64,000 nt of DNA, from assembly GCA_023129115.1 (NCBI GenBank), contig JAGMCR010000017.1:18689-82688 (forward strand), given 5' to 3'. Within the stretch, counting starts at the first letter, position 1. Each line of letters starts with the position of its first letter. Shown here one piece after another: positions 24,451 to 64,000 of the stretch. The notes below the pieces were generated by a model. It saw only the letters and a program-made list of their open reading frames with translations, was not told the origin of the DNA and ran no database searches. Both the position numbers and the translations under genes were made by a program. Source of the DNA: Candidatus Iainarchaeum sp. (GTDB taxonomy: Archaea > B1Sed10-29 > WALL01).

Positions 24451-24849
24451 TTATTCCCGCACCCTCTTCCACACTGCTTCAAGCAGCATCGCGAGCAAGT
24501 AAAAATACGTGGTGAACCAGAACAGGGACCACGCCCAGAAGCCCAATATGGACAATACGTCTCCGTGTATCGCCCCGGCGAAAATCACTATCCCAACTGC
24601 CATTAGCAGGCTCGGCGGCGCGTAAAGCGGGAACGTCACAAAGGAATAGGCCTCCTCCACCGCTTGGTACGCAAAGTACGCTTCCGAGTACTCGGCGAAC
24701 GCTTCATCACACGCAGGGTTTTTTTCGTAAAAGCTGCGCTGGCACTGTGGCTCTGTGGGCCGCAGCAGCATTGGCCCCGCGAATACAACCAAAAGCATTG
24801 CCGCCACGAGCAGCAGCCTCGTTTTGTTCGGTCGCCAGTTAATTTTCAT
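24451..24849 (-). CDS. hypothetical membrane protein
   Basis: 132 aa with four TM segments; its start overlaps the stop of the downstream gene (ATGA). Confidence 0.45.
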   Translation of the reverse strand: MKINWRPNKTRLLLVAAMLLVVFAGPMLLRPTEPQCQRSFYEKNPACDEAFAEYSEAYFAYQAVEEAYSFVTFPLYAPPSLLMAVGIVIFAGAIHGDVLSILGFWAWSLFWFTTYFYLLAMLLEAVWKRVRE

Positions 24850-25619: not shown

Positions 25620-25623
25620 ACAA

Positions 25624-25849
25624 TCAAATCTCTATCTTCATAAAGTCCTTCGCGACAATAACATTGTCAAACAGCTGGATCTCAGCTGGCACGATAGACT
25701 TGGGGGGTGCCATTCGGCACCCCCCAGAGGCAGGCATCAAATCTCCAGCCTCATAAAGTCCTTCGCGACAATAACATTGTCAAACAGCTGAATCTCAGCT
25801 GGCACGATAGACTTGGGGGGTGCCATTCGGCACCCCCCAGAGGCAGGCA
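25624..25849. repeat. two tandem 113-bp direct repeats, each comprising the last ~17 codons plus stop of the RNase Z gene and a 61-nt segment with a perfect hairpin (GGGGGGTGCC-ATTC-GGCACCCCCC)
   Basis: Copies at 25624-25736 and 25737-25849 are near-identical; the third, original copy is the rnz 3' end at 25850-25905. Hairpins at 25702-25725 and 25815-25838. Confidence 0.85.
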
Positions 25850-31046: not shown

Positions 31047-31373
31047 TCAAGTCCGTACCTGCGCAGCCACTTTTTCCTTGTTTGCTTCCAGGGCATGCAT
31101 CATTATGCCGAGCTGCAATTGTTTCAACTTTTTCACGAGCGGGTTTTTCCTGTTGATTGAGTACATCTTTGCCCTTCCTATTGTCCGTGTTTGCTTCACT
31201 AACTCGTATCCCTCGAGAATTGGCCACACATCGTAAACAGTTTTGTAGGCTACCCCTGAGTGTTTTGCTATCTCCGATTTGCTATAGTCATGGGTGTCGT
31301 GGATTAGCAAGAAGTCCAAAACCCCCGAGATTGCGTTGTTGAATATTTCAACCAGCCCATTCTTTTTTTCCAT
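31047..31373 (-). CDS. winged-helix transcriptional regulator-like small protein
   Basis: Start at MEKKNGLVEIF, with an HTH-like segment SKSEIAKHSGVAYKTVYDV. It lies in an AT-rich island. Confidence 0.45.
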   Translation of the reverse strand: MEKKNGLVEIFNNAISGVLDFLLIHDTHDYSKSEIAKHSGVAYKTVYDVWPILEGYELVKQTRTIGRAKMYSINRKNPLVKKLKQLQLGIMMHALEANKEKVAAQVRT

Positions 31374-31473
31374 GGCCTTACTGTCCACGATATAGTATAA
31401 AAAACTATCTTTGTATATATAAAATATTATACGATAGTCTTTATAAACTCTAACTGACACAATCCACAATGCT

Positions 31474-31749
31474 ATGGGGGGGAGGGACAGTGGCCTAATG
31501 GCACAATTGCTAGAGAAAATGATTTATCACGGCTGGATAGGGGGAAAGCACACTTCGGCGGACAACCTCCCAAAAAGCTTTCCCAGACATGCGCGTGACA
31601 AAGTGAAGAAGGCATTGAAGCAATTGGTTGGTTTGGGGTTTATTGTTGTTAAGCCAACAAGTTACGGCAAAGAACTATCAATAAACCCCAGAGCAGTGAA
31701 GGAAATAAAACAGTTCATCCTTGAGCAAAGGAAAGAATATTTAAAATGA
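31474..31749 (+). CDS. small hypothetical (possibly DNA-binding) protein
   Basis: 91 aa, divergent from the wHTH gene across an AT-rich promoter region. Confidence 0.35.
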   Translation: MGGRDSGLMAQLLEKMIYHGWIGGKHTSADNLPKSFPRHARDKVKKALKQLVGLGFIVVKPTSYGKELSINPRAVKEIKQFILEQRKEYLK

Positions 31750-32667
31750 GCATACGTGTATATACCTGCGCATTGACCTGTGCACGTACATCTCAAACCG
31801 CTGTTTTATTTTCCACCCCGCCTTCTTCAGCAGCGGCCGCAGGTCGCCGTGCGCCATCACGACAAGGACCTTTGAGTGCTTCTTCATCTTCCTGAACGCC
31901 TCGAGGTAAAGCTCGCCCCTCTCCCTCCCGAACAAGCCCGAGCTCTTCCCATACGGAAGGTCAGTGACTATCGCGTCGAACTCCCCGCCCCCCCACTCCA
32001 GGAAGTCCGCGTTGTCGACCTTGATTTTCTTTTCCATCCTGTAGAACCACGCGTTCTCCCTCGCGCCCTCTGCGTACTCCTCGCTGATTTCGACGCCCCT
32101 CGCCGACAAGCCCATGTCCGCGGCCTCCAAAAGAATTCCGCCGATGCCGCAGAACGGATCCAGGATTTTTCCCTTCCTAACACCAGTCAAATTAACCAGC
32201 AGCCGCCCGTACTTTGGCTGGAGGCTCGTCGGGTGGAACACGAGCCTGGCGTTCACGTCCCGCGGGGCAAGCCCTTTCGCCGAGTGCTCGTACACTTGCT
32301 CCGTGGCCCAGTACTTCTTGCCGTCCGTGAACACGCGGAGCACTGTCTTGGGCTTATCGAGCCTGACCTTCCCCTTGACCCGCGCTGCCACGGAGTTAAT
32401 AATCGCGGAGCTGCTTTCCTTGCCGGCCACGCGGCTGACGCGGACGGCAAAGGATTTATAAGCAGGAAGCCTTAATCTTTCGCAGTTGCTTGCTTCAGCC
32501 ACCAGCTTTCCCGCGAATCGCGTCATGACGAGCCGCCCCAGGGTTTTGGCGTCGCCGTCGACAAGCAGGAGCTCGCTGTGCAGTGCCTTGGCTTTCGGGA
32601 AGAGCGCTTCCGCCTCTGCCCGCGCGAGCGCAGGGTCCTGCCGCGACAGCTGGAGCACAAGCTTCAT
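31741..32667 (-). CDS. THUMP-domain tRNA (guanine-N2)-methyltransferase (Trm14/TrmG10-like)
   Basis: AdoMet motif I DPFCGIGGILLEAA, motif IV DLPYG, and an N-terminal THUMP-like region. Confidence 0.75.
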   Translation of the reverse strand: MKLVLQLSRQDPALARAEAEALFPKAKALHSELLLVDGDAKTLGRLVMTRFAGKLVAEASNCERLRLPAYKSFAVRVSRVAGKESSSAIINSVAARVKGKVRLDKPKTVLRVFTDGKKYWATEQVYEHSAKGLAPRDVNARLVFHPTSLQPKYGRLLVNLTGVRKGKILDPFCGIGGILLEAADMGLSARGVEISEEYAEGARENAWFYRMEKKIKVDNADFLEWGGGEFDAIVTDLPYGKSSGLFGRERGELYLEAFRKMKKHSKVLVVMAHGDLRPLLKKAGWKIKQRFEMYVHRSMRRYIHVCSF

Positions 32668-32701: not shown

Positions 32702-35700
32702 ATGCCGAAGAAAAGAGTGGCAAAGAAGAAACCGGTGAAGAAGAAAGCCGCGGCAAAGAAAAAAGCTCGGGGGGCGCCCACGGCAAAGCCGGCGGCGCCC
32801 CCCAAAGCAGCGAAGCCGCGGGCAAAGCCTTTGACGAAGACCACACAGTCCCTCCCCATCACCATCAAGTCCACGGCCGAAATCAAAATCCCTGCCAAGA
32901 CAGTGGATCAGGTCCTCGGCCAGGAAAAGGGCGTCGAGATAGTCAAGAAGGCTGCGCGCCAGCGGCGCAACGTCTTCCTCCTCGGCGAGCCTGGCACTGG
33001 CAAGTGCGTCGCCCCGGAAACCTTAATAACACTTGCCGGTGGGGAAGTACTGCCTGCAGAGTCTGTGTTCAATCGAGCAAAAACAAATGGCATTATCGTT
33101 ACACAGGATTCAGACAGAACATTACTTTCTGACACGGGCTTAAGGACGTTATCCATTAACAGGAAAAACGTAAAATTAACAGAGGAAGACGTGCTCTATG
33201 CAGCAAGGTTCAAGAATCTAAAGCAATTATTCAGAATCAAGACTTCTCTTGGTTCTGAGGTAACTCTTACGGATAATCATCCATTGCTCACTATAACAAA
33301 AAGGGGTGAGTTGAAGTGGGTGCCTGCCAAGGATTTGTCAAAGGGGGGTAGGATAGCTAGTGCGAGAAGCGTCACATTCCCGGAGATAACTGACATAGAT
33401 TTCATTGACGACCTTGATGGAGACATTACCTTATGCATACTGGATAGAGAGTTCGGTCTAGAGGAGGCAAAGAAGAAAAAAGTATCTTATGACAAGATAA
33501 GCCACATCAGATACAAAACAAGTGTTACTGATTCCTCCTCAAAAAAAGTCAAGGTGGTGGGCAACTGGAGCGAGGAACTAGGCAGATTCTTAGCGTATAT
33601 GCTTTCAGAGACGTCTATAACAAGGGATAGGAACATTATTTTCACAAACAACGACAAAGCAGCAGTAACAGACTTCGCGTTTTTGGCTCACTCACTCTTT
33701 GGAATTAGATTCAACGTAGCGAAGAGGAAAGAGCATTGGTATGCTCAAGCCAGTTCTTCATCACTTTGCCGTTTTTTGAACCAAGTCTTTGACGTAGCGT
33801 TATCCTCTCCCAACAGGTCTCACATCACAAAATTCCCGCGCCGGATGTTGTCCGCACCACTGCCAGTCCTTGCCGCGTTCATAAGGACTTACTATGATAT
33901 GGAAGGCCATGTGCAAAAGCCGCGCAGGCGGTGTATGGAACTCTGTAGTGGAAGTAAAGAATTTACCAGGGTTATGCAGATTGCACTGCTAAGGTTTGGC
34001 ATAATATCGAGATTAAAGACAAGATACAATGCTGCTACAAATACCAAGGGCAAGAAAAGGAGAAAATATTATTACCTTTTCATATTCGGCGCTGAAAATC
34101 TAAGGAAGTTCAGGGGTTCCATTGGTCTCCACAGCGGTAGGAAGAGAGAACGCCTTGAAAGGTCTATTGTTATAAAGCCCAATCCAAATTTGGATGTAGT
34201 CCCCAATATTTTCGAGGACTTAAAGTTTTTGAAGGAAAAACTAGAGTTCAAGAATACTGACGTGACAGATTACCCTGCTACATTTTCTCGTTATGTCCAT
34301 GGAAAAAGAGAGCCTAGTAGGAGGGGGCTTGCCGATATAACTGAAAAAATTGCTAACGTGTACTTAAGCAAGCAGAAAGTGGCAGGAGTCTATGATGAGG
34401 AAGTAGAAGACACAATCATAAAGTTGTCCTGTCTTACAGATTCTGATATATACTGGGACAAGATTGAGAGCATAACAAAAACCAAAAGTAGCGATTATGT
34501 CTATGATTTCACGGTTCCAACAAACCACAGTTTCTTGGCTGGCAATATCCTGCTGCATAACTCCATGCTTGGCCTCGCGATGGCCGAGCTCCTGCCGGTG
34601 AGCAAGCTGCAGGACGTCCTTGTCTACCCCAATCTTGGCGACCCGAACCAGCCAAAAATAAAAACCGTCAAGGCCGGCAAGGGCCTAAAAATTGTCGAGG
34701 AAGAGACCAAGAAGGCCATGGAGGGCGGCAGCTCCAAGCAGATGGCCGGCTTCATCGCGTTCCTCTTCCTCTTGTCAATCCCGTGGGTATTGCTCTGGCT
34801 TGGGTGGCTCAGCGAGCTGCTCGCCGCGGCGTGCCTCATCGTGGCGGGCATGCTCGGAATCGGCGTAGTCATCGGGATGCAGATGCGGCCCCGCACAGAC
34901 AACACGGCGCCAAAGCTCCTGGTGGACAACTCCCGCCAGAAGCACGCGCCTTTCATCGAGGCGACTGGCGCCAAGGCCGGCGCGCTCTTGGGCGACGTGA
35001 AGCACGATCCGCTCCAGTCCGGCGGCCTCGGCACTCCCGCCCACCTCCGGGTCATCGCGGGCATGATCCACCGCTCGCACCTCGGCGTATTGTTCATCGA
35101 CGAAATTGGCACGTTGTCAGCAAAGTCCCAGCAGGAATTATTGACCGCGATGCAGGAGAGGAAGTTCTCAATCACCGGGCAGAGCGAAATGTCGTCAGGA
35201 GCAATGGTGCACACTTCGCCCGCGCCGTGCAATTTCGTGCTCGTCGCCGCGGGCAACCTGCTCGACCTGAAGAACATGCACCCCGCATTGCGGAGCCGCA
35301 TCCGCGGCTACGGCTATGAGATCTACCTGAACGAGAAGATGCCGGACACTCCGGAGAACCGCGTGAAAATCGCGCAGTTCATCGCGCAGGAAGTCCAAAA
35401 GGACGGCAAAATCCCGCACTTCTCGCGTGCGGGCGTCGAGGCCGTCATCCGCGAGGCGCAGAAGCGCGCTGGGAGGAAGGGCAAGCTGACCGTGAAGCTC
35501 CGCGAGCTCGGTGGGCTCGTCCGGGCCGCGGGCGACATCGCTCGCGCAGACGGCTCTGCGCTCGTCGAGCCGAAGCACATCAAGGCCGCGAAGAAACTGG
35601 CGCGCACGATGGAGCAGCAGCTCGCGGACCAGTACATCTCCCAGAAGAAGGAATACGAAGTCTTTTCAACAAGCGGCAAGAAAGTGGGCAAGGTAAACGG

Positions 35701-36265
35701 CCTCGCCATCATGGGCGACGGCGGCATTGTCCTCCCCATCGAGGCAGAGGTCGCGCCGGCGCACTCCAAGAGCGAGGGCAAGCTAATCGCGACGGGCAAG
35801 CTCGGCGAAATCGCGCGCGAGGCAGTCACCAATGTCTCCGCCATCGTGAAGAAGTACAAGGGCACTGACATCTCCCGCCGCGACATCCACGTGCAGTTCC
35901 TCCAGACCTATGAGGGGGTGGAGGGCGACTCGGCGAGCGTTTCGGTTGCCACAGCATTAATCAGCGCGCTCGAGGAACTGCCGGTGGACCAGAGCATTGC
36001 CATGACGGGCTCGCTTAGCGTGCGCGGCGAGGTCCTCCCGGTCGGGGGAATCACCCCGAAAATAGAGGCGGCAATCGGCGCGGGCATGAAGACAGTCATA
36101 ATCCCCGAGGCGAACAGGGACGACATCCTGCTCTCGCCCGAGGACTCCAAGAAAATCCGCATCATAACCGCGGCCAACCTCTATGACGTGCTCTCCAGCG
36201 TCCTGGCCAGCTCCAAGAAGAAGCCGGCCCTTTTGAAGAAAATCAAGCGCATCGTGAGCCGATAG
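32702..36265 (+). CDS. lonB: archaeal membrane-bound Lon protease (LonB) carrying an in-frame intein within the Walker A motif
   Basis: Lys-rich N-terminus; Walker A GEPGTGK is interrupted and resumes with [12 protein letters not shown]. Walker B LFIDEIG, a TM insert and protease motif GDSASV follow. Confidence 0.9.
33005..34561 (+). mobile_element. intein (519 aa) with LAGLIDADG-type homing-endonuclease blocks inside lonB
   Basis: Cys1 ([10 protein letters not shown]...), C-terminal ...ILLHN with +1 Ser. Blocks [10 protein letters not shown] and [11 protein letters not shown] are present, and the P-loop GTGKS is reconstituted on removal. Confidence 0.8.
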
Positions 36266-43533: not shown

Positions 43534-44283
43534 ATGTTCGAGCTAGTAGTCTCCAACGCCAAGAGCTTCAAGGCCTCTATCGACGCCATAGTCACACTGA
43601 TTGACGAGGGCGAGTTCCAGCTGACCGAGAACGGGCTGGTCCTGAAGGCAATGGACCCGTCGCAAATCGCGATGGTCTCGTTCGTGATGCCCAAGAGCGC
43701 TTTTGAAAAATACGAGGTGGAGGGCGACCAAAAAATCGGCTTGAACCTAGAGGACCTCGCTAAGGTAATGTCGCGCGTGCGCGGCGACGAGAAGCTCGTC
43801 ATCAAGCTGGACGAGAGCAAGGCCCGCCTTGTTCTGCTGTTCAAGGGAAAGACCACCCGCCGCTTTGTTGTCCCACTGCTGGACATTAGCGCGTCCGCGC
43901 CGCGGGAGCCGAGCATTGACTTCGAGTCAAAGATAAAGTTCTCGGGCAACTTCTTCAAGGAGGCATTGAAGGACACGGGCCTCGTGTCTTCGCATGTTGT
44001 CCTCTCGTCGCTGAAGGACGCGTTCGTCATCGAGGCAAACGGCGACAAGGGCGAGGTCTCAATCCGCGCGGACAAGGGGAGCGACCAATTGTTCGACTAC
44101 ACGGTGAAGAGCGAGTCCCGGGCCATGTACCCACTTGACTACCTCAACGACCTGCTCAAGAACACTGACGCGGCGACCGCGGTCGACCTGGAACTACGGA
44201 CAGACGCGCCTCTCCGGCTCGCGTACAAAATCGACGACGCGACAATCACGTACTACCTGGCGCCGCGCATCGAGACTGCTTGA
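43534..44283 (+). CDS. pcn: DNA polymerase sliding clamp PCNA
   Basis: 249 aa with the archaeal PCNA pattern (MFELVVSNAKSFKASIDAIVTLIDEGEF...). Confidence 0.9.
   Translation: MFELVVSNAKSFKASIDAIVTLIDEGEFQLTENGLVLKAMDPSQIAMVSFVMPKSAFEKYEVEGDQKIGLNLEDLAKVMSRVRGDEKLVIKLDESKARLVLLFKGKTTRRFVVPLLDISASAPREPSIDFESKIKFSGNFFKEALKDTGLVSSHVVLSSLKDAFVIEANGDKGEVSIRADKGSDQLFDYTVKSESRAMYPLDYLNDLLKNTDAATAVDLELRTDAPLRLAYKIDDATITYYLAPRIETA
44225..44283 (+). repeat. direct repeat copy 1 (PCNA 3' end including the stop): acaaaatcgacgacgcgacaatcacgtactacctggcgccgcgcatcgagactgcttga
   Basis: Recurs at 45719-45757 (partial), 46404-46472 and 47569-47636. Confidence 0.85.
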
Positions 44284-44320
44284 GGCAACGCTTTTATAGC
44301 CGATATCCCTTACCCCCATA

Positions 44321-45724
44321 GTGATTATAATGAAGCGCCTACTACTGCTATGCCTGTTGCTCGCCAGCGTGTTCGCCGCGTCTCTCGGCACCACGTTCGA
44401 AATCGACCTGGGCGATCCCATAACTCTTTCTGGGTCTAACTTTGCGTTGGTCTCGGTCAATGTTTCCTTCATGCCCGGCCAGACTAGCTTCATTGTTGTT
44501 GACGTCGACGACGAAGAGCACACTATTGACTTTTTGGGTTACGTTGAGACTGATGGCTTCACAATCAAGTGGACCGACACGATGGTTGGGACCGGCGCGA
44601 CCAGCGCATACCTCCACGTCACCGAAATAGTCTCAATCTCTCTCGACACGAGTTTTACCCTCAACACTAAAACAACGCCCAAGGCGCGTTATGGCTCAAT
44701 GATGATTGAGCTGACCGAGACTTACCAAAGCTCCCTGCCTGGGGTGCCCTCGACAGCGACCGTAAAGATTGACGGCAGCGAGGAAACCATCGCCATCGGA
44801 GGGAACACTACTGCGGGAGACTACATACTCTCCGCCGAGTCAATTTCCTTCGGCTCTCCTGACGACGTCACTTTCTTGCTCAGCTCTCCCCCGGCAGAAG
44901 AAGCTCCTGAAGTAACGCCTACTCCAACCCCTGAGCCAACTCCCACCGCCACTCCAGAGCCGACACCAACTCCCGAGCCAGACAGCGGCACATCCACGCC
45001 CCAGGCAATTGGCGGCACATCCACTCCAACCCCAACTCCCGCACCGATGTTAATCGCAGCCCCCCGGGCAATCAGGGCAGTTCCGGTTGCCATCGTGGCT
45101 CCGGTCGCCAGCAGCACCGCGGTCACCGCCAAAATCCAGGCAACACGCATCGCGGAAACCACTTCCCAGGTTAGGGCGCACAGCGCGGCCGGCAACAAAA
45201 TCACTTACCAGGTCGAGGGCAACGCGACTTCACAAGGATACCTTCAAGTATCCAATGCGCCACGCAAGCCGAAGCAAGTCAAGTTCGACGGCGCGGAAAT
45301 CCCGGAGTGCAGCGTTTCGCTCCTGCAGACCTGCATCACCGCCATCCTGGGCGGCGGGGCCACAGAGGACTGCCTCTGCTGGACTTACAACGAGGCGGAC
45401 ACCCAAGTGGAAATCTTTTATCCGCACTCCGAGCACACGATTGAAATCGATTTCGGGGAAGAAGGCGAGGCGGCAACCCCCACCCCAACTCCAGAGCCTA
45501 CTCCAACCCCAACCGGGGAGTCGCCAACTGGCGACTCCCCCAGTGGCTCCGATGGCGAGTCCACAGACGGCGGCTCCACTCTGCTGTACATTGTTGTGGC
45601 ACTCGTAATCATTGTGCTCGCCGCAGGCGCGTTCTTCTTCCTCCGCAAGAAAAAGCCGCCGGCTCCTGAACTGGACTACACAAAAGAAAGCACCACCCAG
45701 CTTGACTACTCAAGCGAAGAGTAA
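44321..45724 (+). CDS. cell-surface protein with a Pro/Thr-rich linker and a C-terminal TM anchor
   Basis: Signal peptide, (TPTPEP)n linkers, and a C-terminal TM followed by RKKK. Confidence 0.6.
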   Translation: MIIMKRLLLLCLLLASVFAASLGTTFEIDLGDPITLSGSNFALVSVNVSFMPGQTSFIVVDVDDEEHTIDFLGYVETDGFTIKWTDTMVGTGATSAYLHVTEIVSISLDTSFTLNTKTTPKARYGSMMIELTETYQSSLPGVPSTATVKIDGSEETIAIGGNTTAGDYILSAESISFGSPDDVTFLLSSPPAEEAPEVTPTPTPEPTPTATPEPTPTPEPDSGTSTPQAIGGTSTPTPTPAPMLIAAPRAIRAVPVAIVAPVASSTAVTAKIQATRIAETTSQVRAHSAAGNKITYQVEGNATSQGYLQVSNAPRKPKQVKFDGAEIPECSVSLLQTCITAILGGGATEDCLCWTYNEADTQVEIFYPHSEHTIEIDFGEEGEAATPTPTPEPTPTPTGESPTGDSPSGSDGESTDGGSTLLYIVVALVIIVLAAGAFFFLRKKKPPAPELDYTKESTTQLDYSSEE

Positions 45725-45757
45725 TCGTACTACCTGGCGCCGCGGGCGGAGCAATCA
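45719..45757 (+). repeat. direct repeat copy 2 (partial, about 24 nt matching the PCNA 3' end)
   Basis: aatcgtactacctggcgccgcg, immediately after the stop of the surface-protein gene. Confidence 0.6.
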
Positions 45758-45800
45758 TGGTTTTCGCTGCATTGCTTTTGGAGTGGCAAGTGTCCTAGCC

Positions 45801-46058
45801 TTATTTGTATGCTTTGTCGTGGTGGCGGACGTACAAGAACTTTATGGCGTTCTTTTTTACTTCGAAGGTTATGACAAACGACTTGGCGTGTACCCGCCGG
45901 CACCCAGCGAGAGGATTTTTTAGTGGCTTGTAGTGAGATGGGTTGCCCACGATTTCATTCATTTTTTTCTGGACCTGTTGGAATAATGCTTTGTTTTTTT
46001 TATTGAGCTTTTTTAGTGATTTTTCGAATGTGGGGGTGAACTCTATTGAGTATTCCAC
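45801..46058 (-). CDS. relE: RelE/ParE family toxin
   Basis: 85 aa; MEYSIEFTPTFEKSLKKL...YKPLKNPLAGCRRVHAKSFVITFEV matches the RelE/StbE pattern. Confidence 0.7.
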   Translation of the reverse strand: MEYSIEFTPTFEKSLKKLNKKNKALFQQVQKKMNEIVGNPSHYKPLKNPLAGCRRVHAKSFVITFEVKKNAIKFLYVRHHDKAYK

Positions 46059-46060
46059 GG

Positions 46061-46312
46061 CTAAAGCCTCTCGAGGAAGTCGTTCATTTGTTTCTTGCTC
46101 TTGAATTTGCGGGACACTTTTTCTTTCTGGCTTTGTTCGATGGCCATTAGCTCTTCCACGTCCATAAGCATTGACTCCATTTCTTTGTATTCTTCTCTGA
46201 GCCCACTTCTGACGAGTTCGCTGAAGTTAGAGAACAAGCCGTTCTCAACCAGTCTCAAACATTCCTTGTACAATGTAACTGGGATAGTGATAGTCACTTT
46301 CTGTGTCTGCAA
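46061..46312 (-). CDS. ribbon-helix-helix (CopG-like) antitoxin
   Basis: N-terminal beta-strand KVTITIPVTLYKE; sits 2 nt upstream of relE. Confidence 0.6.
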   Translation of the reverse strand: MQTQKVTITIPVTLYKECLRLVENGLFSNFSELVRSGLREEYKEMESMLMDVEELMAIEQSQKEKVSRKFKSKKQMNDFLERL

Positions 46313-46403
46313 TTATACCACCTGAATACCTATTGAGTACATACTCTTATATAAACGTTTCTGTTCGCGTGTCCCCATGGCGGCTGTGGACATGCACACA
46401 TAA

Positions 46404-46472
46404 TACAAAATCGACGACGCGACAATCACGTACTACCCGGGCGCCGCGGATAGAGACCGCCTAGCGCTTGTT
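46404..46472 (+). repeat. direct repeat copy 3 of the PCNA 3' end sequence
   Basis: The first 33 nt are identical to copy 1; the 3' half is diverged and ends ...gcctagcgcttgtt, as does copy 4. Confidence 0.85.
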
Positions 46473-46536
46473 TTCTACAAGATACATATGTTCAGTGTAT
46501 TGAACATACTAAAGATAGAAACATTTAAATATACAT

Positions 46537-47103
46537 ATGTATAATATATTGAACATGCTTGAGAGGTATGCCCTGTTCAAGGCCTTGGAGACAGTATTCA
46601 AAAATCCACAGAAAAAGTTTTCGGTCCGGGGCCTTGGCAAGGAAGCGGGCTTCAGCCCAGGAAGTGCAATGGCTTGCTTCAACTACATGAAGGAAAAGAA
46701 GCTAGTGAAAGTAGCCAAAGTCGGGAGAGCGTTTCAGTTCCACGCAGACCTTGAGAATCCTTTGACGCGTGAGTGGAAAAAGTTGTTTGCGCTTGACTCA
46801 TTAGAGCGGGTTTGGGACGGGATGCTAAAGCAGTTAGGCCCGGGCACAGTTGCAGTTCTTCTTTATGGAAGCATGGCAAAAGGCATTGGTGACGAGAAAA
46901 GCGATTTAGATTTGCTTGTTGTTACCAACAAAAAGAAGAGGGTCTCGTTGTCTGACATTGAAGCAAAACTGAAGAGGGAGATAAACTTGACCATGTATAC
47001 GCCGGGTGAATGGAGGGAAAAAGCAAAAAAAGACAAGGTGTTTTACGAGCAGGTGATACTTGACGCAATTATTTTATTTGGTGAGAAGCCGGTGGTGCTG
47101 TGA
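46537..47103 (+). CDS. nucleotidyltransferase (MNT-like, Pol-beta superfamily) with an N-terminal wHTH
   Basis: LLYGSMAKGIGDEKSDLDLLVV (GS...D.D motif). Confidence 0.75.
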   Translation: MYNILNMLERYALFKALETVFKNPQKKFSVRGLGKEAGFSPGSAMACFNYMKEKKLVKVAKVGRAFQFHADLENPLTREWKKLFALDSLERVWDGMLKQLGPGTVAVLLYGSMAKGIGDEKSDLDLLVVTNKKKRVSLSDIEAKLKREINLTMYTPGEWREKAKKDKVFYEQVILDAIILFGEKPVVL

Positions 47104-47522
47104 ACGTTGAGGAATGCATTCAAGAGGGCTTGCTGCTGCAGGTAAAACCTGATAAAGCTAAAGCGCGGAGGTCTCTTGATTCAGCTAAGCACAAGCTTGA
47201 GAGGGCCAAAGGACTTTTTCAGAAAAAATTCTTTGAAGAGGCAACGGTTGCTGCCTATACTTCAATGTTTCATGCGGCACGCGCACTGTTGTTTAAGGAT
47301 GGACACAAGGAGAGAAGCCATTACGCGCTCTGCATTTATGTCAAAGAAAGATATGGCACTAAAATTGAGATGAAGTATATCCACGAGCTCAACACGCTGA
47401 GGATGCAGAGGCACGACATAATGTACGGCTTGGAAGAAAGGCCTGAAATAATGGAAATCGAAACAGAAAGCGCGATAAGCGTTGCAACCGGGTTCTTGGG
47501 AGCCGTGAAAAAACTTCTTTAG
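47100..47522 (+). CDS. HEPN domain protein (partner of the MNT-like nucleotidyltransferase; HepT/MntA-like toxin-antitoxin pair)
   Basis: R-x(4-6)-H motif (KERSH); GTGA overlap with the NTase gene. Confidence 0.75.
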   Translation: MNVEECIQEGLLLQVKPDKAKARRSLDSAKHKLERAKGLFQKKFFEEATVAAYTSMFHAARALLFKDGHKERSHYALCIYVKERYGTKIEMKYIHELNTLRMQRHDIMYGLEERPEIMEIETESAISVATGFLGAVKKLL

Positions 47523-47568
47523 GAAAAGGCGGCTCCACCCCCGGTGTTTCGCATCAATGTGTTTGGCA

Positions 47569-47636
47569 TACAAAATCGACGACGCGACAATCACGTACTA
47601 CTTAGCGCCGCGCATCGAGACTGCCTAGCGCTTGTT
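47569..47636 (+). repeat. direct repeat copy 4 of the PCNA 3' end sequence
   Basis: acaaaatcgacgacgcgacaatcacgtactact-tagcgccgcgcatcgagactgcctagcgcttgtt. Confidence 0.85.
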
Positions 47637-47689: not shown

Positions 47690-48838
47690 GTGAGCTCAAA
47701 ACTCTTCAAGCACTCTTACTTCCCTTCGTCGCTTATTTTCGGTGAAGTGCTGGCCCTGAACCTTTTCAACTGGTTCGCGGCCCTGTTCCTGATAGACCTG
47801 GGCATGACAGGAATGGAAATTGGTGTCCTGCTCTCTGTCTTTCTGGCCACCGCGTTATTCACCACCCTCCCGTTCGGCTACTTGAGCGACTGCTTCCAGC
47901 TAAAGCGGATGGTCTCGTTTGGGATTGCCTGCCTAATACTCTTCTTCGTCGGCCTAACTTATTTCACTTCTTTCCCAATGCTTTTGGCGTTCTTTTTCGT
48001 GGGCGGCGTCGGCGCCAACCTGTTCAAGACTTCAATACGCGCATTCATCTTCAAGGCACTGGACCACCACAAGGAAGGCTTCGAGCTGGGCATTCTCGAG
48101 TTCGTGAGTGTCTTCGCGACCGCCATCGCTGGCGTTTTCGGTGGCTATTTGCTAATGGGTTTTTCTTTTGGCGACATCTTTCCCATCAGCCTGCTTGTCC
48201 TCGCCATTGTCTTTCTGGCGTCGTTCTTCCTTGACAAGAACGTGCTCCACAAGCCGCGGGTGCGCGAATACCGGGGCGACGTGAGCCACAAGATAGTAAT
48301 AGTCCTCGCAGTCGTCTTCTTCCTTTACTCGTTCCACGGCGCCGCCGACGACATAAGCGCGCCAATCGTCTTCCGCGACGTAATTGGCATGAACATGATT
48401 GAAGTGGGCTACGCCCTCGGCGGGGTGCTCTTTCTTGCGGCCTTGTTCTCGCTTTACTTGGGGAAGCGATTCGACAAGTTCCATCACTTTTCCAAGTGGG
48501 CTCTTTTCTTTGGGTTGCTGCTGTCTTCAGGGGGCCACTTCCTGCTCTCGACAGCCACGTCCTTCCTGGAAGTAATGGCCTACCGGGTTATACACACACT
48601 TGGGGACATCAGTGTCAGCGTCTTCATGCTGACCGAAGTCGCCCACTTATTCTCGAAGAAAAGAATCGGCGGCGACTACTCACTGTTCCTATTTGTTGCG
48701 ATTATTGCTGGCGCAGCCGGGAGACTGGTCATCGGCACAGTCGGGGAAATCATTGGCTACCAGCAAACTTTCTTGATTACCGGCTCACTGACGCTGCTAG
48801 GCGCGCTGATTATCCTAGCCACGCACGAAGAGTTCTAG
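47690..48838 (+). CDS. MFS transporter
   Basis: 382 aa with 10-12 TM segments; start codon uncertain. Confidence 0.65.
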   Translation: MSSKLFKHSYFPSSLIFGEVLALNLFNWFAALFLIDLGMTGMEIGVLLSVFLATALFTTLPFGYLSDCFQLKRMVSFGIACLILFFVGLTYFTSFPMLLAFFFVGGVGANLFKTSIRAFIFKALDHHKEGFELGILEFVSVFATAIAGVFGGYLLMGFSFGDIFPISLLVLAIVFLASFFLDKNVLHKPRVREYRGDVSHKIVIVLAVVFFLYSFHGAADDISAPIVFRDVIGMNMIEVGYALGGVLFLAALFSLYLGKRFDKFHHFSKWALFFGLLLSSGGHFLLSTATSFLEVMAYRVIHTLGDISVSVFMLTEVAHLFSKKRIGGDYSLFLFVAIIAGAAGRLVIGTVGEIIGYQQTFLITGSLTLLGALIILATHEEF

Positions 48839-48847
48839 AGCCGCTTC

Positions 48848-50548
48848 TCACTCGCGCCGGTTGTACCTCTTTTCTATCAGCTCGTCAAGGTGCCTCTTGC
48901 GCACGTACTCTCTCCGCCGGGGGTTCAAAGTAAACTCTTCAATCAACAGGCTGGCGTGCTTCCCGCCGAGGAAGTGCGGCAGAATAACGTAGTCCGCCCC
49001 GGCGTCGTACAGCTCAAGCGCCTCGCTGATTTGCTCGGCCATCACCACGCAAATCGCCTTGCTCCTCACTTCCTTCATCCGGTGCAGCAGCACAAAGTTG
49101 TCCTGCACCGAAGGCACGCTCGAAATCACCAGCGTCGCGTCCTTCAGCCCCACGCGGTCCAGCGTCTCGATGTCGCCCATGTCCCCGTACATGCACTTCT
49201 TCCTTTTCTTCAGCAGCGAATCGATTACCTCGGGGTTAAAGTCAACAATAATCGTTGGGATCTTTAGTTTTTGAAGCCTCTGCGCGACGTCAAACCCAAG
49301 CCGGTGGTACCCAAAAAGCACGGCATGGTCCCGCATTTCTTCGGGCAGGCTAATCTTTTGGTCAATCAATTTCTTGCGCTCGAAAATCTTGAAGTACTTC
49401 CCGATTTTGTTGTAAATCTCGTCGTTGTAGTTAATCATGTACGCCGACCCGGTAATGGTCAAAATCCCCACAAGCGTAACAATCGAGACGATGTCCTGGC
49501 TGACGTGCCCAAGCGCGAACCCAAGCGCAATCAGTATCAATGAAAACTCCGAGATTTGCGCCGAAATCATCCCCGTGAGCAGTGAAGTCCTCTTGCTGTA
49601 CCCCTCGAGCCCCATTATCACCATCACAATCAGCGGGTTCCCGAGCAGCACGAACAGCGACAGAATCACGACGGGCCACAGCAATGCCGTCCCCGTCACA
49701 ACGACCCCCATCCCAAGCGTCACGAAGAACAGCACGATGAAGAAGTCGCGCAGCGACCGGATTTTCCCGATGATGTCCACGTTGTACTTCAGCGTCGCAA
49801 GCGACACGCCCGCAATCAATGTGCCGATGTGCAGCGACAGCCCCATCGCGTCAGTGATGTACGCGAACACGAAGCAGTACGCAAGGCTCGAGATGAACAG
49901 CAATTCGTGCCAATGCGCGATGCGGTCAAAGATATGGTGCAGCGCGTACTTCGTGAACAGGTACGCAACGATGAACAATCCAACGCCCTTGAGCAGCGTC
50001 ATGCCCACGAGCTCGTGGATTGGCAGTTGCCCGGCCAGCCCGGCCATGAAAATCAGTGCGAATATCGCGACGAAGTCCTGCGCCAGCAGTATGCCGAGCG
50101 CGACCTTGCCGTGCAGCGAGTGGAGCTCGTTGTCCTCGGACAGCAGCTTCACAATGATAATCGTGCTGCTGAACGTCAGCGCAATCGCGACGTAAATCGA
50201 CTCCATCAGCCCGAAGCCAATGAGCTGCATTATCATGAACCCCACTGCCGCGGTGATTATGACCTGGGCCATCCCCACCATGGCGGCAATTTTCCCGACT
50301 TCCTTGATTTCGCGTATGCTCAATTCAAGTCCCACGGTAAACAGCAGGAACGCAATCCCGAACTCCGAGAAAATGTCAATCAGCTCGCTGGCACTAATCG
50401 TGTTGAGGAACATTGGCCCTAGGAGGATGCCAGTGATGATGTACGCAAGCAGCGGCGGCTGCTTGAACTTCCTCGCGACGTACGCGAGAACGCTCCCAAG
50501 CGCCAGAATCACGCCAATCTCAAAGAAAAGGTCCACCGGTGCATGCAT
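48848..50548 (-). CDS. CPA2 cation:proton antiporter (Kef-type) with a C-terminal RCK/TrkA-N domain
   Basis: About 12 TM segments, then a Rossmann-like segment AVLFGYHRLGFDVAQRL. Confidence 0.8.
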   Translation of the reverse strand: MHAPVDLFFEIGVILALGSVLAYVARKFKQPPLLAYIITGILLGPMFLNTISASELIDIFSEFGIAFLLFTVGLELSIREIKEVGKIAAMVGMAQVIITAAVGFMIMQLIGFGLMESIYVAIALTFSSTIIIVKLLSEDNELHSLHGKVALGILLAQDFVAIFALIFMAGLAGQLPIHELVGMTLLKGVGLFIVAYLFTKYALHHIFDRIAHWHELLFISSLAYCFVFAYITDAMGLSLHIGTLIAGVSLATLKYNVDIIGKIRSLRDFFIVLFFVTLGMGVVVTGTALLWPVVILSLFVLLGNPLIVMVIMGLEGYSKRTSLLTGMISAQISEFSLILIALGFALGHVSQDIVSIVTLVGILTITGSAYMINYNDEIYNKIGKYFKIFERKKLIDQKISLPEEMRDHAVLFGYHRLGFDVAQRLQKLKIPTIIVDFNPEVIDSLLKKRKKCMYGDMGDIETLDRVGLKDATLVISSVPSVQDNFVLLHRMKEVRSKAICVVMAEQISEALELYDAGADYVILPHFLGGKHASLLIEEFTLNPRRREYVRKRHLDELIEKRYNRRE

Positions 50549-62104: not shown

Positions 62105-62164
62105 TGTGGCACCGGCTTCCAGCCGGTGGGACGTCCGGCACGGGGGCCGGACGCTACATTTGCC
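62105..62164. repeat. 60-nt repeat R1 (copy A): tgtggcaccggcttccagccggtgggacgtccggcacgggggccggacgctacatttgcc
   Basis: Near-identical copy B at 63491-63549 in direct orientation; it contains the two short hairpins ccggc-ttcca-gccgg and gtccggc-acggggg-ccggac. Confidence 0.8.
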
Positions 62165-62175
62165 AGTGGTGCCGC

Positions 62176-63402
62176 CTACTTTTCCTGCCCCCACAACTGG
62201 GCCAGTTCGGTCAGCATCTTCACCGACGTCTCCATCTGCTCCAGGCAGGCGAACTCCAGCTCGGAGTGGAAATTGTGCATGCCGGTCGAGATGTTCGGCG
62301 TCGCCAGACCCATCTCGCTCAGGCGGGAGCCGTCGGTGCCGCCGCGGATGGACTCGTACTTCGGCGTGTGGCCGAGCTTCTTGTAGGCCTCTTCGGCCAG
62401 CTTGACGGCCCGCGGTTCGCTCGCGAGGTGCTCGATCATGTTGCGGTACTGCTTCTTGACCTCAACATTGATCTTGGCCTTGGGGTGCGCGGCCTGGACC
62501 TCGGCGGCGGCCTTCTTGAGCAGCTCGGCCTGCTGAGCCAGGTCGTCGGTCACGAAGCTCCGCAGCAGTATCTTGATCCTTAGCTCCGGCACGCCGCCCT
62601 CGATGATGTACGGGTGCAGGAACTGCTCGCGGTCCTTGGTCATCTCCGGCGACATCTCTTTGGGCAGCTTTTCGAGGAACTCGCCTGCCAGACGAATGGC
62701 GTTGACCATCTTGCCGTAGGCCAGGCCGGGGTGGATGTTGACGCCGGTGATGGTGACGGTGGCCAGGTCGGCGGAGAAGGTCTCGTTTTCGAGCCCGCCG
62801 CTGCCCTCGCCGTCGAGCGTGTAGGCACAGACGGCGTTGATGGTCTTGATATCGACCTTATCGGTGCCGCGACCGACCTCCTCGTCGCCGGTGAAGAAGA
62901 CGCGGATGGGGCCGTGCTTGAGGTCGGGATTGCTCATGAGGTGGGCGGCGGTGGTCAAGATGACCGCGATGCCGGCCTTATCGTCGGCGCCGAGCAGGGT
63001 GGTGCCGTCCGAGGTGATGACGGTCTTGCCCTTCAGCTCGGCCAGGCCCTTGGTCTCATCCACCTTGATGACCTTGGACGTGTCGCCGGGCAGGACGATG
63101 TCCTGGCCGTCGTAGTTTTCGAGGATTTGCGGCTTGACGTCTTTGCCGCTGGCTTCGGGCGAGGTGTCCTTGTGGGCCAGCCAGGCGATGGTGGGGGCGC
63201 CGGCGACGTTGCCGGGGATCGTGCCCATGACGTTGCCGGCCTCGTCCATGCCGACGTTCGCGAGCCCCAGGGTCTTCATCTCATCGACCAGCATCTTGCC
63301 CAGCTCAAGCTGCCCGGGCGAACTCGGATATTGGTCGGTCTCCTCAACGGCGGTGGTCTCCACCTTGACATAACGACAAAAGCGATCCAACAACGTGTCC
63401 AC
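62176..63402 (-). CDS. pepT: peptidase T (tripeptide aminopeptidase, M20B)
   Basis: 408 aa with M20 metal-ligand context (HKDT, GADDKAG, GDEEVG, ...EME.../H). Confidence 0.85.
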   Translation of the reverse strand: MDTLLDRFCRYVKVETTAVEETDQYPSSPGQLELGKMLVDEMKTLGLANVGMDEAGNVMGTIPGNVAGAPTIAWLAHKDTSPEASGKDVKPQILENYDGQDIVLPGDTSKVIKVDETKGLAELKGKTVITSDGTTLLGADDKAGIAVILTTAAHLMSNPDLKHGPIRVFFTGDEEVGRGTDKVDIKTINAVCAYTLDGEGSGGLENETFSADLATVTITGVNIHPGLAYGKMVNAIRLAGEFLEKLPKEMSPEMTKDREQFLHPYIIEGGVPELRIKILLRSFVTDDLAQQAELLKKAAAEVQAAHPKAKINVEVKKQYRNMIEHLASEPRAVKLAEEAYKKLGHTPKYESIRGGTDGSRLSEMGLATPNISTGMHNFHSELEFACLEQMETSVKMLTELAQLWGQEK

Positions 63403-63490: not shown

Positions 63491-63549
63491 TGTGGCACCG
63501 GCTTCCAGCCGGTGGGACGTCCGGCACGGAGGCCGGACGCTACATTGCC
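63491..63549. repeat. 60-nt repeat R1 (copy B), plus degenerate partial copies at 63470-63490 and 63556-63580
   Basis: 58 of 60 positions identical to copy A; the two copies flank pepT. Confidence 0.8.
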
Positions 63550-63589
63550 GTGTAGCACAGGCTTCCAGCCTGTGGGTGGCTTATGTGTG

Positions 63590-63730
63590 CCACTGCTCTT
63601 GAGCAGTGCCCAGGCTATCGCCGTGTGCCACTGCTCTGTGAGCAGTGCTTGGCACACGGTGGACAAAGACACTGCTCACAGAGCAGTGGCACACGGTGGA
63701 CAAAGACACTGCTCAAGAGCAGTGGCACAC
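63590..63730. repeat. cluster of palindromes and about 2.4 tandem copies of a 36-nt unit (gagcagtggcacacggtggacaaagacactgctca..)
   Basis: The inverted repeats gtgccactgctctgtgagcagtg / cactgctcacagagcagtggcac lie within it. Confidence 0.6.
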
Positions 63731-63870
63731 ACACCGGTCAGGGCCTGCGGACAGGTTAGCTGGGATTGGGCCGCGAGGCAATCGGGCGGCCGGGCCGGAT
63801 GAAATCGGGGCCCGGTCTTGTCGCGTCCGGCGTCTGCCGCTAGTTTAGCAGTCCGCCGCAAAAGTCCTGT

Positions 63871-63952
63871 AGCGGCCGGGCTCCGTACCGGCCGTTGTTT
63901 TAGGCGAGTATTTTCCCGTGTTCTACGGCCGGTACGGAGCCCGGCCGCTACA
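63871..63952. repeat. perfect 27-bp inverted repeat (gtagcggccgggctccgtaccggccgt ... acggccggtacggagcccggccgctac) with a 28-nt loop, followed by CTAGAAA-type heptamer repeats (63955-63985)
   Basis: Read directly from the sequence. Confidence 0.7.
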
Positions 63953-64000
63953 TCTAGAAACTAGAAACTGGAAACTAGACCTTATCACCTTGTCACGTTC

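What the first reader, a model, noticed from the sequence alone, without database searches (positions are those of the whole stretch)
44225..47636. Three gene cassettes after PCNA, each bounded by a direct repeat of the PCNA 3' end: an integron-like or serial-integration hotspot
The last ~59 nt of the PCNA gene (acaaaatcgacgacgcgacaatcacgtactacctggcgccgcgcatcgagactgcttga) recur downstream as direct repeats at 45719-45757 (partial), 46404-46472 and 47569-47636. These repeats delimit three compact cassettes: (1) a Pro/Thr-rich surface protein, (2) a RelE toxin with an RHH antitoxin, and (3) an MNT-like nucleotidyltransferase with a HEPN protein. Cassettes 2 and 3 and the spacers are visibly AT-richer than the surrounding genome. 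The two distal repeats share a diverged 3' half (…gcctagcgcttgtt) not found in the PCNA copy, so they behave like a family of recombination sites rather than simple duplications. Toxin-antitoxin and surface-protein cargo in roughly 0.6-1.5 kb units separated by similar ~60-bp sites is the organisation of sedentary integron cassette arrays (CALIN-like). It also fits repeated site-specific integration at an attachment site embedded in the PCNA 3' end, which regenerates the gene end each time. No integrase is present in the window.
Basis: partly seen in the sequence, partly recalled or inferred. Interest (0 to 1): 0.75.

Follow-up and report, generated by a model that had tools for sequence, protein, structure and literature searches.

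The report
Relic PCNA gene ends flank inserted cassettes
Downstream of the PCNA gene of a DPANN archaeon, two foreign toxin-antitoxin operons are each followed by a leftover copy of the PCNA gene's last 60 bases; this is the scar of repeated insertions into the gene's end that each time supplied a new working end, and it is not an integron.

Summary
The repeats are real. A 32-nt core of the PCNA 3' end occurs exactly three times (44225, 46405, 47570; 0 expected), and a 19-nt piece occurs at 45726.

R2 and R3 share both borders and a tail (TAG CGCTTGTT) that the gene copy lacks. They are relic coding ends: R3 differs from the live end at 5 bases, and all 5 preserve the protein and the stop (P about 5e-4).

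The RelE/ParE-RHH and MNT-HEPN units are compact, low-GC (0.43-0.45 against 0.57) and absent from relatives. The "surface-protein cassette" is different: a homologous gene follows PCNA in close relatives.

The PCNA-to-NhaP interval differs in every relative examined, so it is a hotspot. The repeats do not fold like attC, and Pfam and PHROGs found no recombinase in the 64 kb, so the integron reading fails.

Serial recombination inside the PCNA end is supported. I favour att-type integration of small elements that now lack an integrase, stabilised by their toxin-antitoxin cargo. Integrase-free short-homology recombination is a serious rival.

A second locus in the window (tRNase Z / PNP) shows the same signature, with an empty site in a relative. 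This is a new member of a known kind, of moderate interest.

The parts
43534..44283 (+). PCNA (sliding clamp) gene, the conserved left flank and the target of the insertions
   Evidence: Pfam PCNA_N 1.5e-18 and PCNA_C 3.8e-11. Orthologues of 77-92% identity with the same upstream synteny occur in L002, L006-L010 and L013.
44224..44283 (+). R1: the live 3' end of PCNA (YKIDDATITYYLAPRIETA*, stop TGA)
   Evidence: Its downstream spacer aligns with L007 and L008.
44330..45724 (+). Surface protein gene (signal peptide MKRLLLLCLLL, Pro/Thr-rich linkers, C-terminal TM anchor). It is hypervariable but syntenic, not a foreign cassette like the other two.
   Evidence: Surface-protein genes follow PCNA in L006, L007 and L008, at 26-36% protein identity to this one. 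GC 0.576, GC3 0.66.
45726..45744 (+). Rp: truncated relic of a PCNA end. It keeps only the 3' half (19 nt exact, R1-type allele) and abuts the surf stop codon. It reads SYYLAPRAE in frame.
45801..46058 (-). RelE/ParE-family toxin
   Evidence: Pfam ParE_toxin 1.5e-11. Low GC.
46061..46312 (-). RHH-type antitoxin candidate, directly upstream of the toxin in the same operon
   Evidence: Pfam RHH_8 E=0.003, below the curated cut-off. The assignment rests on position and size.
46404..46472 (+). R2: relic PCNA end of a different allele (CGG ATA GAG ACC GCC TAG) with a 1-nt insertion, followed by the tail CGCTTGTT
   Evidence: With the insertion removed, 7 nt differ from R1 and only 1 aa changes (P=7e-4). 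Its 3' half resembles the L006 and L008 alleles.
46479..46564 (+). Two direct repeats (46479-46515 and 46528-46564) in the MNT promoter region. They are operator-like and belong to the toxin-antitoxin module.
   Evidence: Family D6. Nucleotide homology with the L014 module starts at 46482.
46537..47103 (+). MNT-type nucleotidyltransferase with an N-terminal wHTH-like region (antitoxin of a HEPN-MNT pair)
   Evidence: Pfam Polbeta 1.7e-7 and NTP_transf_2 2.8e-7. The GS...DxD motif is read in the sequence. The closest homologue (70%) lies in a non-PCNA context in L014.
47100..47522 (+). HEPN protein (toxin partner); its start overlaps the MNT stop by 4 nt
   Evidence: Pfam HEPN 4.2e-12.
47569..47636 (+). 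R3: intact relic PCNA end. It encodes the same 19 residues plus a stop as R1 through 5 protein-preserving changes (CTG>TTA, GCT>GCC, TGA>TAG), followed by the tail CGCTTGTT.
   Evidence: P=4.6e-4.
47690..48838 (+). MFS transporter gene, distal to the last repeat. It is also part of the variable interval.
   Evidence: Pfam MFS_1 8.5e-29. No tblastn match in L002 or L009. GC 0.534.
48848..50548 (-). NhaP-type Na+/H+ antiporter with a TrkA_N domain: the conserved right flank of the hotspot, convergent with PCNA
   Evidence: Pfam. 88% identity in L002, 71% in L009 and 36% in L046, each near PCNA.

Best explanation
The interval between PCNA and the convergent NhaP gene is an insertion hotspot in a Diapherotrites (DPANN) archaeon.

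At least two foreign toxin-antitoxin operons (RelE/ParE-RHH and MNT-HEPN) entered one after another by recombination inside the last 60-70 nt of PCNA.

I commit to this mechanism. Small circular elements carried an att site that copies the PCNA end. They integrated by site-specific recombination, using an integrase that is not in the cassettes and was supplied in trans or later lost.

Each event gave PCNA, or the array, a new protein-preserving end and left the displaced end as a relic (R3, R2 and the truncated Rp). What remains resembles cis-mobilizable remnants: att-flanked cargo with no mobility genes.

The toxin-antitoxin cargo probably explains why these units persist. Direct repeats invite loop-out deletion, and addiction modules penalise it.

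The surface-protein gene is a native-type but hypervariable neighbour. It was most likely brought in together with the current end R1 by recombination with a relative, and that event truncated the older end Rp.

What is shown: the repeats, their coding-constrained divergence, the foreign composition of the cargo, the absence of the cassettes in relatives, and the absence of attC structure.

What is inferred: the site-specific nature of the recombination, the trans-acting integrase, the order of events, and the stabilising role of the toxin-antitoxin modules.
For: - Three exact copies of a 32-nt core, none expected by chance.
- R2 and R3 share both borders although they flank unrelated cargo, as expected of a defined att.
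- R3 differs from R1 by 5 substitutions, all preserving the protein and the stop (P=4.6e-4). R2 has 7 substitutions with 1 aa change (P=7e-4). The copies were therefore working gene ends, or att sites kept able to serve as ends, as in e14/icd (PMC6379469).
- Cassette GC is 0.43-0.45 against 0.57 for the window.
- The units are tight: operon, promoter and at most 90 nt of spacer on either side.
- The MNT-HEPN module exists as a portable unit elsewhere. It is 70% identical in nucleotides to L014, and the homology starts 10 nt after R2.
- Sites without the cassettes: L002 (PCNA 92%) has one unrelated ORF between PCNA and NhaP. L046 has 530 nt. L009 has other genes.
- Integration into the 3'-distal parts of protein genes, tandem arrays and integrase loss are documented in archaea (PMC6563490, PMC8371274). 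Integrase-less att-flanked remnants and accretion are documented in bacteria (PMC5704250, bioRxiv 10.1101/2020.12.28.424599).
Against: - No integrase in the 64-kb window.
- No element carrying this att in IMG/VR or the JGI metagenomes.
- None of the other 14 PCNA-centred loci from close and distant relatives, nor any of 68 JGI PCNA loci with at least 300 nt of downstream sequence, shows a second PCNA end; a protein-motif scan of all 96 sequences fetched agrees.
- The units are only 0.65 and 1.1 kb and carry no remnant of a mobile-element backbone.
- Rp has a different left border.
- The outermost relic (R3) is the best preserved and the innermost (Rp) the most decayed. That is the reverse of the simple model in which the newest insertion lies next to the gene.
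- A second locus (tRNase Z) with an unrelated repeat shows the same signature, including 113-nt units with no cargo. Explaining that by integration would need a second integrase specificity. It fits integrase-free recombination better.
Confidence: 0.45

Rival explanations
1. Integrase-free, homology-driven insertion. DNA from diverged relatives, or circles looped out of their arrays, recombines with the chromosome through the short identical stretch in the PCNA end (Campbell-type single crossover or homology-facilitated illegitimate recombination). This duplicates the gene end. The relic ends are then simply the alleles of the donors.
For: - All three copies are identical over the first 32-36 nt and differ only beyond, which is where homologous crossovers would fall.
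- The relic alleles match variation seen among relatives: R2 carries CGG ATA GAG as in L006 and L008, and the tRNase Z ends come as KIEI and RLEI alleles.
- No recombinase was found.
- Two loci with unrelated repeats show the same signature: 2 of 61 genes, scoring 30/30 and 28/30 against a control maximum of 22/30.
- The length of the repeat varies (68, 50, 24, 19 nt).
- The tRNase Z copies are mosaic and covary within a genome (TTT in all window copies, TTC in both L095 copies), which suggests gene conversion between short repeats.
- Relatives range from 0.39 to 0.61 GC, so low-GC cargo could still come from the same clade.
Against: - R2 and R3 share exactly the same 5' and 3' borders next to unrelated cargo. 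Independent illegitimate joints would not do this.
- The first duplication still needs a separate mechanism.
- The nearest MNT-HEPN relative is not next to PCNA.
- Nothing is known about DNA uptake or short-homology recombination in Diapherotrites.
Confidence: 0.33
2. Integron-type cassette array (CALIN). The repeats would be attC sites recombined by an IntI encoded elsewhere.
For: - Cassette size and cargo fit: toxin-antitoxin genes and signal-peptide proteins are enriched in archaeal integron cassettes, and most archaeal arrays are CALINs (PMC9668308).
- The repeats are about 60-70 nt long.
Against: - No hairpin: folding energies are not better than shuffles on either strand.
- No R''/R' core sites at the borders (read).
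- The copies are 88-92% identical and are the coding end of the adjacent gene, with coding-preserving divergence.
- No IntI in the window.
Confidence: 0.03
3. Local tandem duplication of the PCNA end followed by divergence, or a metagenome mis-assembly that strings strain variants together.
For: - The tRNase Z locus does contain a 113-nt tandem duplication.
- The source is a metagenome scaffold.
Against: - In-place divergence would put most changes in the unconstrained relics and make them random with respect to the code. Instead all 5 changes (R3) and 6 of 7 (R2) preserve the protein.
- The cargo between the copies differs, so these are not duplicated units.
- The left borders of R2 and R3 join sequences with no shared k-mer, so a graph mis-join cannot create them.
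- The MNT gene is also on record from a separate 82.7-kb NCBI contig.
Confidence: 0.05

Closest known systems
Prophage e14 (and phage 21) integrated in the 3' end of icd in E. coli
   Same: Integration occurs inside the 3' end of an essential protein-coding gene. The element supplies a replacement gene end with conservative changes, and the displaced end stays downstream as a pseudo-end (icd', 163 bp) (PMC6379469).
   Different: e14 is a prophage with its own integrase and integrates once. Here there are two or three tiny units without an integrase, in an archaeon, and the target is PCNA.
CIMEs and tandem accretion of ICE/IME-type elements (e.g. the ICESt1/ICESt3 family in Streptococcus thermophilus)
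   Same: Units flanked by att sites that have lost their integration and transfer genes, arranged in tandem with chimeric internal att sites (PMC5704250). From my own knowledge, not checked in a paper here: the ICESt1/ICESt3 target is the 3' end of a protein gene (fda).
   Different: Those remnants derive from identifiable ICEs, and a cognate integrase is known. No parent element or integrase was found here, and the units are single toxin-antitoxin operons.
Tycheposon islands of Prochlorococcus
   Same: Successive integrations at one site push older elements further into the island. The islands contain cargo separated by partial copies of the target and degenerate remnants (bioRxiv 10.1101/2020.12.28.424599).
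   Different: The target there is a tRNA gene and the elements carry tyrosine recombinases. Here the target is a protein gene end and no recombinase is seen.
Integrated mobile elements of Thaumarchaeota in 3'-distal regions of protein genes
   Same: This is an archaeal precedent: 14 of 68 elements use the 3' part of protein-coding genes and introduce a new stop codon, and tandem arrays occur (PMC6563490).
   Different: Those are elements of several to many kb, most with integrases. PCNA was not named as a target in the passages of that paper that I read. The phylum is different.
Integron cassette arrays / CALINs, including archaeal ones
   Same: Gene-sized units, toxin-antitoxin and secreted-protein cargo, repeats of similar length between units, and often no integrase nearby (PMC9668308).
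   Different: attC sites are structured, heterogeneous in sequence and unrelated to neighbouring genes. These repeats are unstructured, near-identical copies of the PCNA coding end.

Membership tests
Integron / CALIN | attC sites: imperfect palindromes that fold into a hairpin (R''-L''...L'-R') | tested here: not met
   DNA folds of R1, R2 and R3 on both strands give z-scores from -1.2 to +1.9 against shuffles, with no end-to-end pairing.
Integron / CALIN | Core sites RYYYAAC / GTTRRRY at the cassette borders | tested here: not met
   Read. The 5' border is ATACAAA. The 3' borders are GTTTTCT (R2) and GTTGAGA (R3). Neither fits, and the two ends are not complementary.
Integron / CALIN | intI with attI and Pc next to the array (not required for a CALIN) | tested here: not met
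   No recombinase domain in about 60 ORFs across the 64 kb.
Integron / CALIN | Recombination sites differ in sequence between cassettes and are unrelated to host genes | tested here: not met
   The copies are 88-92% identical and are the coding end of PCNA.
Site-specifically integrated elements in tandem (attL / internal att / attR; CIME-like remnants) | Direct repeats identical to the 3' end of the target gene flank foreign DNA | tested here: met
   for the repeats. for the foreign composition of units 2 and 3.
Site-specifically integrated elements in tandem (attL / internal att / attR; CIME-like remnants) | The insertion regenerates a functional end of the target gene | tested here: met
   R1 and R3 encode the same 19 residues plus a stop. 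R2 does so apart from 1 aa change and a later 1-nt insertion.
Site-specifically integrated elements in tandem (attL / internal att / attR; CIME-like remnants) | Unoccupied site in related genomes | tested here: met
   L002 (PCNA 92%), L009 and L046 lack the cassettes between PCNA and NhaP. No relative has exactly PCNA-MFS.
Site-specifically integrated elements in tandem (attL / internal att / attR; CIME-like remnants) | A cognate tyrosine or serine integrase in the element, the genome or a related element carrying attP | tested here: not met
   None in the window. No attP-bearing contig in IMG/VR or JGI. The other ~205 kb of the scaffold and the rest of the MAG could not be read.
Site-specifically integrated elements in tandem (attL / internal att / attR; CIME-like remnants) | Excision or a circular form with a fixed crossover point | not testable with these tools
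   This needs the reads of SAMN18200505 or an experiment.
Type II RelE/ParE-RHH toxin-antitoxin pair | Small toxin of the ParE/RelE fold with an adjacent upstream RHH antitoxin gene | tested here: met
   ParE_toxin 1.5e-11. The RHH_8 hit is only E=0.003, below the cut-off. The two genes are 2 nt apart on the same strand.
HEPN-MNT toxin-antitoxin pair | Adjacent or overlapping MNT (GS...DxD nucleotidyltransferase) and HEPN genes | tested here: met
   Polbeta/NTP_transf_2 and HEPN hits, with a 4-nt overlap. The pair is conserved as a unit in L014 and L003. The HEPN Rx4-6H motif was not checked.

The most novel reading that the evidence does not exclude
Diapherotrites archaea may exchange gene-sized cassettes without any dedicated integrase. 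The last 20-70 nt of essential genes (PCNA, tRNase Z) would act as portable recombination sites. Each incoming unit brings a synonymous replacement gene end, and looped-out circles re-insert by short-homology recombination. This would work like an integron but run on the host's recombination machinery, with toxin-antitoxin cargo stabilising the arrays.
Probability: 0.2. Interest if true: 0.7.

Novelty: new member of a known kind. Interest (0 to 1): 0.42.

Why it matters
Little is known about mobile elements and gene flow in DPANN archaea. This locus shows that the 3' end of a replication gene can serve as a recurrent entry point for foreign genes in a small, streamlined genome. It also shows that the displaced gene ends keep a readable record of which alleles met there.

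If no integrase turns out to be involved, the two loci in this window would point to a cheap, general way of capturing genes next to essential genes. Population metagenomics of the same sample could test that directly.

The practical lesson is that arrays of similar 60-nt repeats with toxin-antitoxin cargo should not be called integron-like without a structure test.

Tried and rejected
- **attC-like folding** of the repeats on both strands: no signal.
- **Rfam** scan of the whole window: no family reached its gathering score.
- **tRNA scan:** none, so this is not a tRNA-linked island.
- **Search for the att on mobile elements:** three IMG/VR scans and one JGI metagenome scan with exact or degenerate repeat patterns gave 0 hits.
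- **Is the PCNA end a common att in the clade?** The other 14 PCNA-centred loci from close and distant relatives and 68 JGI PCNA loci with at least 300 nt of downstream sequence were searched with their own PCNA ends. A protein-motif scan then covered all 96 sequences fetched. No other genome has a second PCNA end.
- **Integrase hunt:** Pfam on about 50 ORFs and PHROGs on 10 unannotated ORFs found nothing.
The only hairpin found by the scan is a weak 6-bp stem on the minus strand.
- **P0121** (MNT, 99% identical) is the same gene with a TTG start, not a second genome. Its contig could not be fetched.
- **Order of the insertion events:** it could not be reconstructed. Several orders fit, and none explains why R3 is the best preserved relic.
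- **A 9-nt match** (CGCGACAAT) between the PCNA and tRNase Z repeats lies on opposite coding strands and is within chance. I dropped it.

Full report
**Source.** The window is part of a 268,886-bp metagenome scaffold (ENA ERZ23498683, ZHAN22-2 scaffold_7), at about record positions 42,969-106,968. NCBI labels its proteins Candidatus Diapherotrites, a DPANN archaeon.

- PCNA is 43534-44283 (+).
- A 32-nt stretch of its 3' end occurs exactly three times in the window, at 44225, 46405 and 47570. None was seen in 100 shuffles.
- The full copies are R1 44224-44283 (the live gene end), R2 46404-46472 and R3 47569-47636.
- R2 and R3 begin at the same base (TACAAAATCG), next to unrelated upstream sequence. 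Both end with GCC TAG CGCTTGTT before they diverge. R1 instead ends GCT TGA GGCAACGC.
- A fourth piece, Rp, is 19 nt exact at 45726-45744. It is only the 3' half of the repeat and starts right after the stop codon of the preceding gene.
- The gene calls are confirmed: a surface protein, ParE/RelE plus an RHH-like gene on the minus strand, MNT plus HEPN, and then an MFS transporter.
- GC falls to 0.43-0.45 in the two toxin-antitoxin units, against 0.57 overall. GC3 is 0.52-0.56 against 0.75-0.88 for native genes.

**The repeats are relic gene ends.**
- R3 translates to the same 19 residues and a stop as R1. Its five differences (CTG>TTA, GCT>GCC, TGA>TAG) all preserve the protein.
- Five random substitutions preserve the protein in only 0.05% of trials.
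- R2, with one inserted base removed, differs at seven bases and changes one residue (P=7e-4).
- If the copies had diverged in place, most changes would sit in the unconstrained relics and would be random with respect to the code.
- So R2 and R3 evolved as working PCNA ends, either in other lineages or on elements selected to supply a working end. They were joined to this gene later.
- R2's 3' half (CGG ATA GAG) resembles the alleles of relatives L006 and L008.

**Comparison with relatives.**
- Upstream synteny (RNA polymerase subunit L, two conserved ORFs, PCNA) is stable across relatives with 69-92% PCNA identity.
- The conserved right flank is the convergent NhaP gene (48848-50548). It is 88% identical in L002, 71% in L009 and 36% in L046, each time near PCNA.
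- The content between PCNA and NhaP, or directly after PCNA where the contig ends early, differs in almost every genome:

| Locus | What follows PCNA |
|---|---|
| L002 | one 182-aa ORF on the minus strand |
| L046 | 530 nt |
| L009 | an MFS fragment, MFS, Na/Pi cotransporter, PhoU, HAD |
| L003 | a different MNT-HEPN pair (29-35% identity) |
| L006, L007, L008 | surface-protein genes |
| L010, L011, L013 | unrelated genes |

- The interval is therefore a genuine hotspot, and the two toxin-antitoxin units are absent from all relatives.
- The surface-protein gene is not a cassette of the same kind. Homologous signal-peptide, Pro/Thr-rich genes follow PCNA in L006, L007 and L008, the spacer from R1 to its start codon aligns with L007 and L008, and its GC is host-like.
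- The MFS gene has no counterpart in L002 or L009, so it also belongs to the variable part.

**How specific is the phenomenon?**
- None of the other 14 PCNA-centred loci from close and distant relatives, nor any of 68 JGI PCNA loci with at least 300 nt of downstream sequence, carries a second copy of its own PCNA end.
- A protein-motif scan of all 96 sequences fetched found extra TYYLAPRIE-like motifs only in this window.
- Degenerate and exact repeat patterns found nothing in IMG/VR or the JGI metagenomes.
- The MNT-HEPN module, including its operator-like promoter repeats, is 70% identical in nucleotides to a module in an unrelated context (L014). That homology starts 10 nt after R2.
- The toxin-antitoxin module is thus a portable unit, and the PCNA repeat is not part of it.

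**The integron reading fails.**
- The repeats do not fold better than shuffled sequence on either strand.
- They lack the core sites.
- They are near-identical copies of a coding sequence.
- No recombinase domain was found in about 60 ORFs of the window.
- Archaeal integrons exist and carry similar cargo (PMC9668308), so the analogy was reasonable. The defining features, however, are not met.

**A second locus with the same signature**.
- The last 48-50 nt of the tRNase Z gene (25850-26752, minus strand) recur twice downstream, inside 113-nt tandem units. Each unit also holds a strong GC hairpin.
- The first relic differs from the live end at six bases, all synonymous (P=2e-5).
- The last 24 nt recur again as the C-terminus of the next gene, a PNP_UDP_1 phosphorylase (24846-25619).
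- L096 shows the empty site: tRNase Z ending DFMKIEI*, followed by a membrane-protein gene.
- L095 comes from the same single-cell genome as L002. It shows PNP inserted inside the tRNase Z end with a 17-nt exact direct repeat. PNP uses the displaced tRNase Z end as its own last seven codons.
- The motif DFM(K/R)(I/L)EI is the conserved tRNase Z C-terminus, and both alleles occur among relatives.
- A systematic scan found downstream relics for only 2 of 61 genes in the window. PCNA scored 30/30 and tRNase Z 28/30, against a control maximum of 22/30.

**Mechanism.** Both loci show insertions into the end of a conserved gene that bring a new functional end and displace the old one. The classical cause is site-specific integration with an att site that copies the gene end. 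Precedents are e14 in icd (PMC6379469), archaeal elements in the 3'-distal parts of protein genes (PMC6563490), tandem arrays and integrase loss (PMC8371274), integrase-less CIME remnants and accretion (PMC5704250), and tycheposon islands (bioRxiv 10.1101/2020.12.28.424599).

The identical borders of R2 and R3 next to unrelated cargo favour this reading, and I adopt it with a confidence of about 0.45.

Several points argue against it and for integrase-free short-homology recombination with DNA from diverged relatives (about 0.33):
- No integrase and no parent element were found.
- The units are minimal.
- The repeat extents vary (68, 50, 24, 19 nt).
- The tRNase Z units carry no cargo.
- The copies are mosaic and covary within genomes.
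- Two unrelated target sequences lie within 20 kb of each other.

The order of events cannot be resolved. The outermost relic (R3) is intact, while the inner ones are frameshifted (R2) or truncated (Rp). This does not fit a simple model in which the newest insertion lies next to the gene.

The presence of toxin-antitoxin cargo is most simply explained by selection against loop-out between the direct repeats. That is an inference.

**Verdict.** This is a real, well-delimited scar of serial insertion at the PCNA 3' end in a DPANN archaeon. It is not an integron. I class it as a new member of a known kind, with an unresolved and testable question about whether any integrase is involved.

Noticed in passing
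window 24846-26752 (minus strand); L095 6001-7720; L096 6001-6960: The tRNase Z gene end (FDNVIVAKDFMRLEI*) recurs twice downstream in 113-nt tandem units, with only synonymous changes in the first copy. Its last 24 nt recur again as the C-terminus of the next gene (PNP_UDP_1). A relative has the empty site, and another has PNP inserted with a 17-nt direct repeat. This is the same signature as the PCNA locus, with an unrelated repeat.
   Followed up: yes
window 25673-25735 and 25786-25848: The 63-nt spacers of the tRNase Z tandem units hold a strong hairpin, GGGGGGTGCCGAATGGCACCCCCC (z = -5.0 against shuffles). It may be a terminator carried along with a replacement gene end.
   Followed up: partly
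window 62105-62160 and 63491-63546: A 56-nt direct repeat (98% identical) with two GC hairpins (z -3.4 and -4.8) flanks the M20 peptidase gene 62176-63402 (-). The gene lies in a GC-richer stretch (0.61-0.66). Related CCGGCTTCCAGCCGG hairpins occur 4 times, all in this area. The origin is unknown.
   Followed up: partly
window 63560-64000: A dense cluster of palindromes and short tandem repeats: a 29-nt perfect repeat at 63650 and 63687, a long inverted repeat GTAGCGGCCGGGCTCCGTACCGGCCG...CGGCCGGTACGGAGCCCGGCCGCTAC, and CTAGAAACTAGAAACTGGAAACTAGA. No Rfam match.
   Followed up: no
window 6573-10112 and 32702-36265: Both Cdc48 and Lon carry inteins with LAGLIDADG domains. These coincide with low-GC patches (8401-9000 at 0.475; 33001-34800 at 0.43-0.47). 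L010 and L095 have Lon genes of about 620-650 aa whose precomputed Pfam listings show no intein.
   Followed up: partly
L003 7287-8664: A relative with 69% PCNA identity also has an MNT-HEPN pair as the first genes after PCNA. It is only 29-35% identical to the one here and has no flanking PCNA repeats. This suggests independent capture of the same kind of cargo at the same hotspot.
   Followed up: partly
window 31047-31800: A low-GC patch (0.42) holds a 140-aa ORF (31047-31469, minus strand) whose only hits are PHROG families, one of them an HTH DNA-binding protein. It may be another small foreign insert.
   Followed up: no
L002, L007, L008, L009, L096 (whole loci): Relatives with 77-92% PCNA identity to this genome (L096: 77% tRNase Z identity) range from 0.39 to 0.61 GC over the fetched loci. 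Base composition alone is therefore a weak guide to whether DNA is foreign within this clade.
   Followed up: no
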